Positions 3,684 through 63,000 of a stretch of DNA of 64,000 bases are shown here, one piece after another. The position numbers are program-made. Each line of letters starts with the position of its first letter. Position 1 is the stretch's first letter. The DNA lies in assembly GCA_951406725.2 (NCBI GenBank), contig OX597833.1, positions 43,524,001 through 43,588,000 on the forward strand. Direction: 5' to 3'. This DNA is from Octopus vulgaris. Its lineage: Eukaryota.

Positions 3684-6600
3684 CATGTATGTGGTTTCCA
3701 CATGAATTTTTTTGGATTACCTCCCGCCCCTTCATACACACACACAGAGTAAAAAAATGAATAAAATTCAACATTCTTGTTTTATATAACATGTCAAGTT
3801 CTTTTTCAAACTGTTAATGAAAAAAAAAAAAATATATATATATATAATAAAATATGTTAAAAATAAAATTTCGTATTTTTAAATTGAAATAAAATCAATG
3901 GCAACAAAAAAAAAATTATAGCACCCCATCCACAACTTTCATTTCATTTAAAGCATCGTCAATAGATCAAATTCTGCAGAAGGATCAAAGACCCAAGAAG
4001 TCAAAAAAAAAAAAAAAGAAAGAAAGAAAAAAAAGAATTGTCAATGACATTTGTGTGTAGTCAATCATTTATGATGACATCTATTTTCTGAAGGATTACT
4101 ACAGTGGTAGAAATTGGAATTTCTAACCATAGGTGCAAGACCACACATTTTGTAGGAGCAAAAGTCATTTAGAATGACACAATTCCCACTATTACCTAAC
4201 TGAAATTTATGTACAAGTTAACTATTAGTCCAGAAGGATTAATAGTTAATTTGGTCTGGGCAGGATTTGAACTCAGAATGCAAAGAGGAGCATATTTTGT
4301 CAATTGCATTACCAATTCTGCTATCAACAGCAATCCATACAATACACTTTTGATGATGGGTGAAAATCTACAAAATTAGTATTGAAAATATGTGGACTAA
4401 GTTTAAAGTTTCTTAGGTAGTTAGACCTTTGAAAAGCCTGGGATACTTGGAAAAATTTTTTTTAAATAATGGTTTTGAATTCTGACATAAGGCCAGTAAA
4501 TTTAGGTGAAGTGGGTAAGTAGATTACATTGACAGGTACTTATTTTATCAACTGCAAAACTATGAAAGGCAAAGTCAACCTCAGCAGAATTTCAACTGTG
4601 AAACCAGAAACACTTGGCATTGTGCCTGACCTGTAAATGATTATGCAGCTTGCCATCTTTTAATTTGTTTAAATAATAAGGGTCCTAGAAGTGAAAAAGG
4701 TTGGCAGCCAATGGTATAGCAAATTGGACATCGTGTTTTGAACCCCAGAGAACTAAGAGATAAGGGGACTTCAGTAGATATCACAAGGCATTTTGTCCTT
4801 AATTCTAATGATTCTGCTATCCACTGCTCAAAGAACAACAAACATGAAAATGATTTCTTTCATTGGTACAGGGTCACAAATCTTTAGGAGAAGGCAGTGT
4901 CATATTTTAGTTGAGACCAAGTACATCACTAGTAGTTATTTTACTTAACCCATAGAAGTGAAAAGTGAAATAATTTCAGGTAGAATTTGAACTGAGAACA
5001 TTGATTTTAACATTTGGATAATAATAATGACAATTATTTCTAATACAGGTACAAAGCCAGAAATTTTCAAGAAGAGGTTGATCAATTAAATCAACTTGAA
5101 TATTTGACTGTTACTGCATTTTACTGACTCGAAAAAGAACGAAAAGCAATGGTGACCTTGGTAGGAATTGAACTTAGAGCATAAAGGACCATAAGTAAAT
5201 ATTGTCATTCATTTTGGCCAATACAGTTCTTCCAATCCACCACTTTGAAAATAATATTATTATTATAGAATCTTCAAGTAACAGCAATGTACTGGAGTCA
5301 ATGTAACTGACATACCCACTCATGCCTTTGTGTCGACATTTGAAAGAATTATTATTATTATTATCATTATTATTGTTAATAATAATAATTATACTAATAA
5401 AAATATATTCTTACATTAGAAAAGGCCTGACAGTATATTTTTTAGAAGGGAAGGAAATTAAACAATTCATATCAGATTTAGTATTTAACAAGTAAACTAG
5501 TTAAATACTAGCATCTTAAAGATCCTCAAAAGATGAGAGGCAAAATTTGACCATTCCTGTGTATGTATGCATATCTGTAAATATTTTTTTGTGTATATGT
5601 ATACATATGTATATGTACATGTGTGTGTGTGTGTGATTTCACAGAATTAAACTTTTTCTTTTATAAATGAAAAAATAGCATAAATGATTCACATCTTTGT
5701 ATAAAAAGAATTACTATATATGAAAAACAATGGCCATTAAAATACATATATGTGTGTGTGTATGAATGTGTGTGTGTGTATATACACGTATATAAAAGAT
5801 TTACACATATTTTCTTAATGTCAGTAACCATTTCACACAGCAGAACCTGGTGCATATCGCTGGCTGTAGGAGCCACCATCATCTTCATCTTCTACATTCA
5901 TTACTGGGTTCGCTTTACCTTCAACGGTGTAGACACCTATGTCTTGATTGTTTCGTGGGTTGGCATTGGCCCGACCTGTTTGTTTTGTCTGGAAGTTAAA
6001 AAAGAAAAAGAATTAAAATCACACAAAAATCAGCTTAACAATCCTTTCTATTATATGCACAAGGCCTTAAATTTTGCAGAGAAAGAGTTAGTCAATTACA
6101 TCAACCCCAAGATCCAACTGGTATTTACTCTACCATACCCCAAAAGACTGAAAGGCAAGGATAAATGTAATGCTGGAAGAAATGCCACTAAGTATTTTAT
6201 CAGACATGCTAACGATTCAATACATACACCAGCTAAATAAAGGTTTCAAATTTTGGCACAAGGCCAGCAGTTTTGAGGGAGGGGGCCAAGTTGATTACAT
6301 CGACCTCAGTGCTCAACTGATACTTATTTTATTGACCCTCAAAGGATGAAAGGCAAAGTCAACCTTGGCAGAAATTGAACTCGTAACATAAAAAGCATCC
6401 AGTCTATACTGTAAAGTGGTTGGCATTTGGAAGGGCATCCAGCAGTAAAAACCACACTGAAACTAACCTCAACTGTGCTGGTGCCACATAAAAAGTACTC
6501 AGTCCACTTTGCAAGGTGGTTTAGGAAGGGCATCCAGCCGTAAAAATCATGCCAAAACAGATACTGAAGTCTAGTACAGTCTTCTTCCAAGCCAACTGCT

Positions 6601-60000: not shown

Positions 60001-63000
60001 ACCACTTTACAGAGAGTACTGGGTGCTTTTATGCAGTACTGGCATAGGTGCTTTTTACATGGCACCAGCACCTATGAGCTCACAAAATTAGGAAAGCCCA
60101 ACTGAAGAGGGATGCAGGGACCATGCCTGTATGCTAGGGCAACCATGCCTTTGCTTAGCTTGGCAGGTCTCCTCAAACACAACAAACCACCAGGAGCCTC
60201 AGTCCCTTGTCATACCCGCCTGTGAGGCCCAACATAATGGTAAAACACTGGATACACACCCAGGGTTGATTTTTTATGGATTTCACAACTGTCCTTAATA
60301 GAAAAACAACTGTTAGAAAGAAAAAAAAAAACTATAACACTCCTAAAAACATAAAACTGAAATAAATGCAATAAATAGGTGTAATCATCATCATCATCAT
60401 TGTAACTAATAATACATATTATCATCATCAAAAATGTCAAAAGTTCATTTGTTCCATCTCAACCATCACCACCACCACCAAAATCTTATATTATCTGATT
60501 ATTGCACATGGTACCTTAACTCTATTTCGTGAGTGATAGGACTGCTGCAAGGTTGTTGTCTGTGTGTCTGAATGTGTATGCATGGACGTAAAAGTGAGGC
60601 AGGCAAATAGAAAAGCAGGCATGCAACAAAGCTGAACAATGCATGCAATAATCATTTTTTTTTTTTTTTATATATGCACAAATACATACAATCCACATTA
60701 CTGTTTTTTAATGTCCATTTTCCCATGCTGGTGTCATCCGCTGATAGAGTTCTCTCTCACACATATGTATTTAGATTAGTAGTTCTATATTGCTAATACA
60801 AACAGAAGTGTGTATGCAATACTAAGTAGAGTGACGTGTGCAAGTACAAGTGCATGAGCGTGTGTACGAACACAGAGAAAATACATGTACACATGCATTT
60901 TGAGAGCAATATTAGATCCCTGATTTGAAAAAATACACAAATATGTTTTGTACCATTTTGTATATACTTACATATATATATTCACAAAGAGACATACACA
61001 CATGCATATATACAAAATATGTATATTTATGGAGAGAGAGAGAGAGTTGAGGGAGGGAGAACTAATTTGCTTTAAATAAATATACATAAATATGCTTAAT
61101 AAACACACATGTGACCTTGCCACAAAAAGATTCTATGATTAAATTGTAGAGCAGACCAAGCAACTCAACTAGTTTTGCCTGTCTTTACAAGCTTGTCAGG
61201 AATACTTACTTCATCCAATCTGGCAAAAGAGAGTGAGGGAGGGTGAATAAGAGTAGTTTACAGTCATACTGAAAAATGTGATGAAGAACCATTGGCAATC
61301 CATATTAATCAGCTAAAATACTGAGCCTTTAACTCTTTACAGGATGCTGACAAGCCATCCCAGGACTTTAGATAATTAACATGCACCACCAAAGAATGTA
61401 TGCAAATGAACAAAAGTATTTTTTATTTTTCATAAATAATTGGAAACATCTCTTTTTCCTTCTCACTCTCTCTGTTTCTTCCTCTAATTCTATATATATA
61501 TAAAGCTGAAGTTGTCTGTGTATGGCAGGTTTGGTAGCCTTCAACTAACACTATCTCCTCCGAGACCCTGCGGCGCAACTTGACCAAAATTGAGAGTATG
61601 ATAGAAGAAGGCTTGCTCTTCGTTCCGTAGAAGATAAAATTCAAATCGGACCATGTTAAGACCAAAAATTATTTACATCAAAAAGGTGCTTTTTTTCTAT
61701 GAAAATCCCTATTTATTACGATTTTTTTACTGCTGTGTCGCCATTTTTCAGTGTATTTCAACCAGAAAAATGTTCACTTAAAGAGAATAACAAGCTACAT
61801 AATGCAAACTTTTTACTTTTCAAAAATTCCAATTCTAAAGGGTCAAAACAAACCCAAGCAATGCGGGGCGATACTGCTAGTATTGATAAAAGCAAAGTCT
61901 CCTGATGAGTTTGTGAAGACAGCTGAAAGGGTCATGTAGTTTAATCCCAAAGCAAAATGTATGCTTATTAAGCCTACACATCAAAATTTATAGACAATTG
62001 ATCAATAAAGAGGTTGTTTTAGTCCTTTACACATGCACGCATGCATACACAGATACATACATATATATAAATATATATGTATATAAAGGCCAAAGATATA
62101 TAATTTCTGCATACTTATTTCAGAAAATCATGAAATGAGTTTAAGAAAAGCAAAAATGAATTCAATTTAGATTGGTATAAAGTAAATTTAATAGAAGGAA
62201 AATTAATATACTTAGCCACTGACATCATACTGATAACTGAAAACAGACAGAACTTGACTTAATTTTGGAAAACCATTATTAAGTCCAGTGAAAATGCTGA
62301 ACTTTTCTTCAATATCAGTAAATCAAAAGTATTGACAATATTACCATATAGAATATAGCTGCAGAGATACATGGTTACCCAGGTGTCAGTTTTCAACTAC
62401 CTAATATTTCACTACAGTTATTCAGGACATAAGAGATGAGTTTAACCCTTTAGTATTTAAACCGGCCATATCCGGCCAAAATAGCTAATCTGTTTTTATG
62501 TTCAAACTGACCAGATCCAGGCCCTCACACTTACCCTACAATGTTATTCTACATTAAGTAATTACACCATCAAGATCTTGAAGATATGAGATAATGCATG
62601 ATTAATTCAAATCAATGGGAATCAATAGGCATTATGTTTGATAGAATAATCTGAACAATAAAGGGTTAAGGCCAAATAATCCAAAGGGCATTCCTATATG
62701 CCAAAAACCTAGTTCTCATAGCTGAATCTAACAAAAATTTTGAGAAGAAATCCCAAATCTAGAAACAAAACCCAATATGAAAAAAAAAAATGTTTTAGTT
62801 TGCGGCAAATTTGATGGAACGCTACTGCCATCATGGAAGTAGCCAAGAATCATAAGCAGAGAAAGAAGTAGATTAGACCTCTTTACTTAGTATTCAATGT
62901 AAACCATCGATGTAGTAGCGTCACTTACAAGCTGACAAAGAAGTTTACTTTGGCTGTAGCAGATTCTATATATTAAGTAAAAAGTCTTGCTGTCATCATT

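What the first reader, a model, noticed from the sequence alone, without database searches (positions are those of the whole stretch)
5833..61219. One receptor-like gene with switchable cytoplasmic tails: ITIM/ITSM tail versus two PDZ-ligand tails via alternative last exons spread over 46 kb
Seen: three stop-terminated exons on the minus strand, each behind a good polypyrimidine-CAG acceptor and each starting in phase 0. They are 52126-51785 (VYEN, P9, LHYAEL, TPYAEV), 15417-15367 (...TSSVV*) and 5988-5833 (...YAPGSAV*). Upstream exons at 61219-61210 and 60559-60515 both end in phase 0, so they can splice to any of the three. I found no signal-peptide, ectodomain or transmembrane exons between 6 and 52 kb, which argues against separate tandem genes. 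Established: (I/V/L/S)xYxx(L/V) ITIMs and TxYxx(V/I) ITSMs recruit SHP-type SH2 phosphatases, pYxN binds Grb2, and C-terminal S/T-x-V binds class I PDZ domains. Inference: alternative last-exon choice toggles one surface protein between an inhibitory phosphotyrosine receptor and a PDZ-scaffolded adhesion/synaptic form. The gene's identity is not visible in this window.
Basis: partly seen in the sequence, partly recalled or inferred. Interest (0 to 1): 0.8.

Follow-up and report, generated by a model that had tools for sequence, protein, structure and literature searches.

The report
Octopus Ig receptor: optional ITIM exon
Two of the three claimed exons are real and belong to one uncharacterized octopus immunoglobulin-like membrane protein, but gene models join them in series, so the likely switch is inclusion or skipping of an inhibitory-motif exon ahead of a constant tail.

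Summary
Exons A and C are real. They match, residue for residue, the NCBI model [quoted passage not shown] (483 aa). That protein has a signal peptide, two Ig-like domains, one transmembrane helix and a disordered tail.

The claimed architecture does not hold. In this model exon A is internal, at 52123-51815 (309 nt, 103 codons). An O. bimaculoides model also joins A to C, through an earlier donor. Two other models go from the juxtamembrane exon to a C-type tail without A.

The supported switch is therefore a cassette exon carrying YxN, polyproline and the ITIM LHYAEL, placed ahead of a constant end, -GSAV. The V that completes the "ITSM" TPYAEV is encoded by the GT of the donor, so the spliced protein reads TPYAET.

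- **Exon B:** no support. Seven look-alikes occur by chance on the same strand of the intron.
- **Upstream exons 61219-61210 and 60559-60515:** no support.
- **An A-terminal read-through isoform:** not excluded.
- **Function:** inferred only.

The parts
51815..52123 (-). Exon A as used in the annotated models: a 309-nt (103-codon), phase 0/0 cytoplasmic cassette exon. It encodes VYEN (YxN), a run of nine prolines, the ITIM LHYAEL, a middle tyrosine and TPYAE.
   Evidence: Matches P0003 residues 330-432. It is absent from P0004 and P0006. It is 48% identical over 95 aa to the cuttlefish P0007.
52124..52126 (-). The upstream CAG of a tandem CAGCAG acceptor. Using it would add one Gln.
   Evidence: Sequence. 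The 2 of 2 models that include A (P0003, P0008) start at the site equivalent to 52123. No model with the extra Gln was seen.
51785..51814 (-). Read-through extension (VEIAKLTRN plus stop). It starts with the GT of the donor GAG|GTAGAA and is intronic in the annotated models. Its first codon supplies the V of the 'ITSM' TPYAEV.
   Evidence: P0003 continues with exon C after TPYAE. In the genomic ORF P0013 from another octopod the stop is replaced and the frame runs on.
51877..51878 (-). Position equivalent to the alternative donor (GCT|GTGGAA, last exon base 51878) used by the O. bimaculoides model. It gives a 246-nt phase-0 exon that keeps the ITIM and drops the two distal tyrosines.
   Evidence: P0008 joins ...LHYAELQLA to the exon C peptide. 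Use of this site in the window's own species is not shown.
5989..51814 (-). Intron of 45.8 kb between A and C. It is filled with repeats, reverse-transcriptase fragments and TA-rich microsatellites, and it contains the unsupported 'exon B'.
   Evidence: Junctions. RVT_1 hits. Tandem repeats. No relative matches inside it at E < 0.01.
5833..5988 (-). Exon C: the terminal coding exon (51 codons plus stop). It ends ...YAPGSAV, behind the best acceptor of the set (16 of 18 pyrimidines, CAG).
   Evidence: Matches P0003 residues 433-483 and P0004 residues 332-382. The GSAV end is present in 4 of 4 relatives with a complete C-type tail. Acceptor count.

Best explanation
The window holds the 3' part of one gene on the minus strand. 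It is the octopus gene annotated as uncharacterized LOC115221679. The protein is a type I membrane protein with a signal peptide, two Ig-like domains, one transmembrane helix and a disordered cytoplasmic tail.

Only the last two coding exons lie in the window. Exon A (52123-51815) is a symmetrical 103-codon cassette. Exon C (5988-5833) is the terminal coding exon. When A is included, the tail gains a YxN site, a polyproline run, a canonical ITIM (LHYAEL) and two further conserved tyrosines. When A is skipped, the juxtamembrane exon joins C directly. Both forms end in the conserved -APGSAV, which fits the class I PDZ-ligand pattern.

- **Shown by sequence and database models:** the exons, their junctions, their phases, and the with-A and without-A forms.
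- **Inferred:** the ITIM is phosphorylated and recruits an SH2 phosphatase. Inclusion of A would then turn a PDZ-anchored adhesion or recognition molecule into an inhibitory signalling one, in the manner of PECAM-1 cytoplasmic exon skipping.
For: 1. Exon A alone finds P0003 (O. sinensis LOC115221679 isoform X2) at E 8.4e-61. Exon C alone finds the O. bimaculoides model P0008 at E 2.6e-15.
2. P0003 reads ...TDKMK / SEPSE...TPYAE / TKQTG...GSAV. Both blocks map exactly onto 52123-51815 and 5988-5836.
3. P0008 also has A followed by C.
4. P0004 joins ...TDKMK directly to TKQTG..., and the Argonauta hians X4 model P0006 has a C-type tail without A.
5. The cassette is 309 nt and phase 0/0, so skipping it keeps the frame.
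6. LHYAEL is present in 4 of 4 sequences that contain A (P0003, P0008, P0013, P0007). The three distal tyrosines have identical spacing in octopus (405/422/430) and cuttlefish (329/346/354).
7. GSAV is present in 4 of 4 complete C-type tails.
8. The AlphaFold model shows two beta-sandwich domains (residues about 40-250, block pLDDT mostly 70-89), a helix at 265-294, and a tail with pLDDT mostly below 50. Foldseek's top hits are two-Ig-domain chains at E about 1e-7.
9. Residues 1-329 are absent from the window.
10. PECAM-1 variants lacking exon 14 cannot bind SHP-2 (PMC5664058, passages read).
Against: - All splice evidence is from gene models, not from reads that I could see. Whether those models rest on RNA data was not visible.
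- P0004's source label is shared with the 70%-identical P0005. It is therefore probably a best-hit name, and the provenance of the A-skipped model is unclear.
- The Argonauta model has 28 extra residues where A would be, and they do not align to A.
- The cuttlefish model P0007 ends 6 residues after the last tyrosine with no C-type tail. That fits an A-terminal form as well as a truncated prediction.
- The two species' models use different donors in A.
- In the spliced product the distal motif is TPYAET, which does not fit TxYxx(V/I). Only one canonical inhibitory motif therefore remains.
- The YxN tyrosine is not conserved: it is H in P0013 and absent in P0007.
- Pfam finds no Ig family in P0003, even at E <= 1.
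- No phosphorylation, SH2 binding or PDZ binding was tested.
Confidence: 0.75

Rival explanations
1. Besides the spliced forms, the donor at 51815 is sometimes read through and the transcript is polyadenylated in the intron. That would give a protein ending ...TPYAEVEIAKLTRN, with a complete ITSM and no PDZ-type end. A and C would then also act as alternative last exons.
For: - The frame stays open for 9 codons past the donor, and the read-through completes TxYxxV.
- The donor GAG|GTAGAA is weak. It lacks the consensus bases at +4 to +6 (the consensus is recalled).
- AATAAA/ATTAAA hexamers lie 247 and 327 nt downstream of the stop.
- The cuttlefish model P0007 ends shortly after its TDYAVI and has no C-type tail.
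- Isoforms X1, X3 and X4 were not seen.
Against: - No model seen from an octopod ends in A.
- Any phase-0 exon followed by a GT donor reads V on read-through, so the ITSM fit may be a by-product of the splice site.
- In P0013 the stop is replaced and the frame runs about 40 codons further. Identity after the donor (8 of 13) is lower than in the 9 intronic codons before the acceptor (9 of 9). The read-through tail therefore shows no sign of being under selection.
- Poly(A) hexamers are common in 65% A+T sequence.
Confidence: 0.17
2. Exon B (15417-15367, ...TSSVV) is a third genuine alternative terminal exon, and 61219-61210 and 60559-60515 are genuine upstream exons of the same gene.
For: - B has a CAG acceptor, is in phase 0 and ends in S-x-V.
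- U1 has a 16 of 18 pyrimidine acceptor and a GTAAGT donor.
Against: - Seven B-like candidates occur on the same strand of the intron at B's acceptor quality, and 3 on the opposite strand.
- None of the 7 relatives matches B, U1 or U2.
- The residues that precede A in P0003 and P0008 (...YAKTDKMK / ...YAKSDKMK) are not encoded in the window.
- U1 is 10 nt long, and U2's acceptor has 9 of 18 pyrimidines.
Confidence: 0.05
3. The exon architecture is as in the best explanation, but the tyrosine motifs and the S-x-V end are not signalling modules. The protein would then be a plain adhesion or recognition molecule, and its disordered tail fits short consensus patterns by chance.
For: - ITIM-type patterns are short. 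By my own rough estimate, not computed in a call, about 7% of tyrosines fit by composition, and A has 5 tyrosines.
- The distal motif fails the ITSM pattern in the spliced product, and YxN is not conserved.
- No sequence homology to any characterized inhibitory receptor was found.
Against: - LHYAEL is invariant between octopus and cuttlefish, although the exon overall is 48% identical.
- The spacing of three tyrosines is conserved.
- APGSAV is invariant from Octopus to Argonauta, while the rest of C is 59% identical.
- The protein-language-model look-alikes include CD22, SIRP-alpha, G6b-B and Siglec-like clusters. Their scores of 0.91-0.94 make them leads only.
Confidence: 0.3

Closest known systems
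PECAM-1 (CD31) cytoplasmic exon skipping
   Same: It is an Ig-domain type I membrane protein whose tail is built from several small exons subject to alternative splicing. Variants lacking exon 14 lose SHP-2 binding (PMC5664058, passages read). In both cases a phase-preserving cassette carries the inhibitory tyrosine motif.
   Different: No sequence homology was found. PECAM-1 has six Ig domains against two here. In the octopus protein one 103-codon cassette holds all the motifs, and the constant end is PDZ-type.
CEACAM1 long and short tail isoforms (recalled, not checked in a call)
   Same: Splicing of one cytoplasmic exon decides whether an Ig-superfamily adhesion molecule carries inhibitory tyrosine motifs.
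   Different: As I recall it, the CEACAM1 exon changes the reading frame and so the C-terminus. Here the frame and the C-terminus are kept.
Oyster NCAM1 homologue with two ITIMs
   Same: It is a molluscan Ig-superfamily transmembrane protein with cytoplasmic ITIMs, linked to an SH2-domain phosphatase (SHIP2) and to dampening of inflammatory factors (PMC11841013; title and start of abstract seen in the listing).
   Different: Its architecture differs (three Ig domains plus one FN3 domain). It was not among the 5 hits. The abstract lines I saw mention no alternative ITIM exon.
Vertebrate ITIM-plus-ITSM receptors (Siglec/CD22, SIRP-alpha, G6b-B, PD-1)
   Same: They are Ig-like type I membrane proteins with a proximal ITIM and a distal second tyrosine motif in a disordered tail. 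Several of these families are the nearest clusters by language-model features (scores 0.91-0.94, leads only).
   Different: There is no detectable sequence relationship. The distal motif is canonical only on read-through of the donor. A PDZ-type C-terminus is not part of my recollection of those receptors.

Membership tests
   P0003 and P0008 contain A followed by C in one protein.
   No transcript or 3'-end data are available. Hexamers alone are uninformative at 65% A+T.
Cassette exon | The length is a multiple of three and the phases are symmetrical, so skipping keeps the frame. | tested here: met
   52123-51815 is 309 nt, or 103 codons.
Cassette exon | Both inclusion and skipping products exist. 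| tested here: inconclusive
   At the level of gene models, inclusion is seen in P0003 and P0008, and A-less forms in P0004 and P0006. No reads were seen, and P0004's label is ambiguous.
ITIM-bearing Ig-superfamily inhibitory receptors (functional class) | A type I membrane protein with extracellular Ig-like domains. | tested here: met
   By fold, the model has two beta-sandwich domains plus a transmembrane helix, and Foldseek's top hits are two-Ig-domain chains at E about 1e-7 with low TM-scores of 0.31-0.43. By sequence profile it is not met: no Pfam Ig family at E <= 1.
ITIM-bearing Ig-superfamily inhibitory receptors (functional class) | A cytoplasmic (I/V/L/S)xYxx(L/V/I) motif. | tested here: met
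   LHYAEL lies at P0003 residues 403-408 and is conserved in 4 of 4 sequences that contain A.
ITIM-bearing Ig-superfamily inhibitory receptors (functional class) | An ITSM, TxYxx(V/I). | tested here: inconclusive
   It is met only in the read-through translation (P0001, P0013) and in the cuttlefish P0007. It is not met in the spliced P0003, which reads TPYAET.
ITIM-bearing Ig-superfamily inhibitory receptors (functional class) | Tyrosine phosphorylation and recruitment of an SH2 phosphatase. | not testable with these tools
   This needs an experiment.
Class I PDZ ligand | A free C-terminus of the form (S/T)-x-hydrophobic. | tested here: met
   The end is -SAV. GSAV is present in 4 of 4 complete C-type tails.
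Class I PDZ ligand | Binding to a PDZ domain. | not tested
   No partner is known, and no complex prediction was run.
Homology with a named vertebrate receptor family (Siglec/CD22, SIRP, PECAM, CEACAM) | Significant sequence similarity. | tested here: not met
   All 5 hits at E <= 0.001 are cephalopod proteins. The best PDB profile hit has E 0.031. Pfam shows nothing above its cut-offs.

The most novel reading that the evidence does not exclude
The 5' splice site at 51815 acts as a molecular toggle. If it is spliced, the distal tyrosine motif reads TPYAET and the protein ends in the PDZ-type -GSAV. If it is read through and polyadenylated in the intron, the donor's own GT supplies the valine that completes an ITSM (TPYAEV) and the PDZ end is lost. 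One splice decision would then change both the SH2 partner set and the scaffold anchoring of a cephalopod-specific Ig receptor. Cassette skipping would give a third state.
Probability: 0.12. Interest if true: 0.6.

Novelty: new member of a known kind. Interest (0 to 1): 0.3.

Why it matters
Inhibitory ITIM receptors are central to vertebrate immune and adhesion control, and a few have been reported in bivalves. My word searches found no paper describing one in a cephalopod:
- 0 papers.
- 3 papers.
- 15 papers, 10 listed.
- 1 paper.
- 7 papers, 6 listed.

None of the listed papers is on a cephalopod receptor, judged by title. Supplementary files could not be read.

This is a lineage-restricted two-Ig receptor. 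Its ITIM block sits on one optional exon, conserved from octopus to cuttlefish. That makes it a compact, testable candidate for inhibitory signalling in cephalopod haemocytes or neurons.

The practical value here is mostly corrective. The locus is already annotated, and the striking "ITIM tail versus PDZ tail" reading does not hold for the models on record.

Tried and rejected
- **Upstream exons in the window.** tblastn of P0003 and an exact 5-mer scan of its residues 1-331 in six frames gave 15 scattered single hits with no cluster. The upstream exons are therefore not in the window.
- **Exon B.** At 16 aa it is too short for any protein search tool. I assessed it only by the null count, by a self-BLAST showing it is not a repeat copy, and by its absence from the relatives.
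- **Cluster members.** The listing of cluster members for the 5-member cluster of P0003 was unavailable because the database was switched off. Isoforms X1, X3 and X4 were never seen.
- **Exon C against 1.84 billion representatives.** The search gave 5 hits at E <= 0.001. Three of them (P0009, P0011, P0012) are long repetitive proteins, and I set them aside as compositional matches after reading them.
- **Pfam on exons A and C alone.** Nothing meaningful turned up. The best hit, Mito_fiss_reg at E 0.05, comes from the proline run.
- **PDB profile search.** Nothing below E 0.03.
- **Rfam at gathering thresholds.** 0 matches in the window.
- **Paper search.** It was badly posed (any 2 of 5 terms). 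The 12 listed of 2,324 papers all lacked the immunoreceptor term, so it says nothing.
- **Other cephalopod genomes.** I made no DNA-level comparison with other cephalopod genomes, so conservation of the donors and of the read-through frame stayed unchecked.
- **Joined translation.** I neither made nor searched a joined translation of the window's exons. They were searched one by one, and the spliced arrangement is read from database protein models.
- **Complex prediction.** I ran no prediction for SH2 or PDZ partners, because no partner sequence was in hand.

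
Full report
**What is in the sequence**

The window has no N and is 35% G+C, and its sequence is full of repeats and microsatellites.

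- A (52126-51785) gives 113 residues with VYEN, nine prolines, LHYAEL and TPYAEV, then a stop.
- B (15417-15367) gives 16 residues ending SSVV, then a stop.
- C (5988-5833) gives 51 residues ending GSAV, then a stop.

Pyrimidine counts in the 18 bases before each acceptor's final CAG triplet are as follows:

| Acceptor | Pyrimidines (of 18) |
|---|---|
| C | 16 |
| A at 52126 | 15 |
| A at 52123 | 13 |
| B | 12 |
| U1 | 16 |
| U2 | 9 |

**Identity of the gene**

I searched the exons one by one. I did not make or search any joined translation of the window's exons. The spliced arrangement below is read from database protein models.

Exon A found a single protein, 1 of 132 candidates, at E 8.4e-61. 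It is [quoted passage not shown], 483 aa, held as P0003.

Exon C was run against 1.84 billion representative proteins and gave 5 hits at E <= 0.001:
- Two are octopus models. P0008 was later named XP_014784991.1, LOC106879800, O. bimaculoides. P0010 is a "hypothetical predicted protein" of O. vulgaris.
- Three are long repetitive proteins that I set aside after reading them.

tblastn of P0003 on the window places residues 330-432 on 52123-51815 and residues 433-483 on 5988-5836. The only mismatches are in the residues that flank the junctions. The window is therefore O. sinensis or something very close to it.

**The architecture differs from the claim**

P0003 reads ...TDKMK / SEPSE...TPYAE / TKQTG...GSAV. 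In that model:
- Exon A starts at 52123, the second CAG of a CAGCAG tandem acceptor.
- It ends at 51815, at a donor GAG|GTAGAA.
- It joins exon C at 5988.

The exon is 309 nt, or 103 codons, with phase 0 at both ends. Skipping it therefore keeps the frame.

Other models add to the picture:
- The O. bimaculoides model P0008 also has A followed by C. It leaves A earlier, after ...LHYAELQLA. The equivalent site in the window is GCT|GTGGAA, with last exon base 51878.
- P0004 (382 aa) joins ...TDKMK directly to the exon C peptide.
- The Argonauta hians X4 model P0006 has a C-type tail ending YAPGSAV with no A-type segment.
- The cuttlefish model P0007 has an A-type tail and stops 6 residues after its last tyrosine, with no C-type tail.

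All of these are gene models. I could see no reads.

P0004's label cites XP_029647744.1, isoform X5. The same label sits on P0005, which is only 70% identical. The label is therefore probably a best-hit name.

**What is not there**

- **Upstream part of the protein.** Residues 1-329 of P0003 cover the signal peptide, both Ig-like domains, the transmembrane helix and the juxtamembrane stretch. They have no match in the window. tblastn gave only three further alignments, all at E > 3. An exact 5-mer scan gave 15 scattered single hits. The preceding exon therefore lies beyond 64000, and the intron before A is longer than 11.8 kb.
- **U1 and U2.** U1 is 10 nt long.
- **Exon B.** It is matched by none of the 7 relatives. 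At B's acceptor quality the minus strand between A and C holds 80 acceptor-plus-phase-0 ORFs of at least 10 codons, and 7 of them end in [ST]x[VILF]. The opposite strand gives 56 and 3. B is what chance provides.
- **Repeats.** None of A, B, C, U1 or U2 is a repeat copy within the window, apart from the proline-codon run in A.

**The protein**

Pfam finds no family above its cut-offs. A PDB profile search finds nothing below E 0.03.

An AlphaFold model was built from the 6-sequence alignment A1. Its mean pLDDT is 58.9. It shows:
- two beta-sandwich domains over residues about 40-250, with block pLDDT mostly 70-89;
- a helix at 265-294;
- a tail with pLDDT mostly below 50.

Foldseek against the PDB returns two-Ig-domain chains first (Fab chains, pre-TCR beta) at E about 1e-7. 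TM-scores are low, 0.31-0.43 per target, and rmsd is 9 Å or more. I attribute that to domain orientation.

Relatives at E <= 0.001 are 5 proteins, all cephalopod. This is a lineage-restricted member of the Ig superfamily.

Language-model look-alikes include pIgR-like, fasciclin-3, CD22, SIRP-alpha, G6b-B, Siglec-like and MAG clusters at 0.91-0.94. At those scores they are leads only.

**Motifs and their conservation**

- **ITIM.** LHYAEL is present in 4 of 4 sequences that contain A, including the cuttlefish. The cuttlefish exon is otherwise 48% identical.
- **Tyrosine spacing.** The three distal tyrosines keep the same spacing in octopus (405/422/430) and cuttlefish (329/346/354).
- **YxN.** It is present in P0003 and P0008. 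The tyrosine is a histidine in P0013, and the motif is absent in P0007.
- **"ITSM".** It fits TxYxx(V/I) only in the read-through translations (the window and P0013) and in the cuttlefish (TDYAVI). In the spliced P0003 it reads TPYAET. The valine is encoded by the GT of the donor, so any phase-0 exon read through its donor would show a valine there.
- **Read-through tail.** P0013 is a genomic ORF from an unnamed 1,997-base contig of another octopod. In it the window's stop is replaced and the frame runs on. Identity after the donor is 8 of 13, against 9 of 9 in the intronic codons before the acceptor. I see no sign of selection on the read-through tail.
- **C-terminus.** GSAV ends 4 of 4 complete C-type tails. 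APGSAV is invariant from Octopus to Argonauta, while exon C overall is 59% identical.

**How it most likely works**

Shown at the level of sequence and models: one gene, a modular tail, an optional 103-codon exon, and a constant terminal exon.

Inferred from established knowledge of ITIM, SH2 and PDZ recognition, as named in the finding:
- With A included, the tail can be tyrosine-phosphorylated at the ITIM and recruit an SH2 phosphatase. It also offers polyproline and, in some species, a Grb2-type site.
- Without A, the protein keeps only the juxtamembrane tyrosines and the PDZ-type end.

The nearest documented parallel is PECAM-1. Its cytoplasmic exons are alternatively spliced, and its exon-14-less variants cannot bind SHP-2 (PMC5664058, passages read). 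A molluscan precedent for ITIM-bearing Ig proteins is the oyster NCAM1 homologue (PMC11841013, listing abstract). CEACAM1 long and short tails are a further parallel that I recall but did not check.

**Rivals**

- **An additional A-terminal read-through isoform.** It is not excluded. The donor is weak, hexamers lie 247 and 327 nt downstream, the cuttlefish model ends in A, and isoforms X1, X3 and X4 are unseen. I give it about 0.17.
- **B, U1 and U2 as real exons.** About 0.05.
- **The motifs are functionless pattern matches.** About 0.3. Their conservation argues against this.

**Novelty**

The locus is annotated but uncharacterized. Word searches gave:
- LOC115221679: 0 papers.
- ITIM with cephalopod: 3 papers, all irrelevant by title.
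- ITIM with octopus: 15 papers, 10 listed, none on a cephalopod receptor by title.
- "Immunoreceptor tyrosine-based" with cephalopod: 1 paper.
- The same term with octopus: 7 papers, 6 listed. None is on a cephalopod receptor by title.

A 2025 review of invertebrate Ig-superfamily proteins has 0 occurrences of cephalopod or octopus (PMC11999971, find). Supplementary tables were closed and may list the gene.

I file this as a new member of a known kind. It is an invertebrate Ig-like receptor with an optional ITIM exon.

**Left unchecked**

- I saw no transcript or read evidence.
- I could not compare DNA with other cephalopod genomes, because the open contig collection is prokaryotic and the other two were closed.
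- The members of P0003's cluster were not listed.
- No binding test was done.

Noticed in passing
outside the window: P0003 versus P0004 (alignment A1): The two models are nearly identical except in the first Ig-like domain. Identities are 68 of 108 in Ig1, against 103 of 105 in Ig2, 76 of 79 in the stalk, transmembrane and juxtamembrane part, and 51 of 51 in exon C. This could reflect mutually exclusive Ig1 exons, a hypervariable or polymorphic recognition domain, or a recent paralogue. The source labels are ambiguous.
   Followed up: partly
outside the window: P0005 and P0010: A 303-aa model that is 70% identical to P0003 and has a different short tail sits on the same 225.7-Mb contig as a 262-aa model that begins with a diverged exon-C-like peptide. 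This is probably a paralogous locus whose prediction is split, which would make this a small gene family.
   Followed up: no
window 51877-51878 (-): The O. bimaculoides model leaves exon A at a different donor from the O. sinensis model, dropping the two distal tyrosines. This is either a species difference, a second alternative 5' splice site, or a prediction artefact.
   Followed up: partly
window 26808-27092 (+) and 9231-9497 (-): There are reverse-transcriptase (RVT_1) fragments inside the 45.8-kb intron. The first scores E 4.1e-9, above the Pfam cut-off. The second scores E 1.7e-5, below it. They are decayed retroelement copies.
   Followed up: partly
window 37746-39194 and 39548-40420: Two TA-rich microsatellite blocks of 1.4 kb and 0.9 kb lie here. 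They lower G+C to 0.17 in 38001-40000 and produce the longest, meaningless ORFs in the window.
   Followed up: yes
window, many places, e.g. 14717-15130, 16205-16519, 23983-24330, 30763-30993, 32224-32565, 47062-47298, 58027-58311; also 6987-7211, 15011-15415, 34187-34750, 35193-35507, 47984-48343: Two kinds of ORF translation recur on both strands. They look like dispersed SINE-like repeat families. One copy abuts the unsupported exon B.
   Followed up: no
window 1-64000: There is no Rfam family at gathering threshold on either strand. Among the 7 relatives run by tblastn and the 8 ORFs scanned against Pfam, nothing outside exons A and C matched a protein, apart from the two reverse-transcriptase fragments. 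The other ORFs in the window were not searched.
   Followed up: partly
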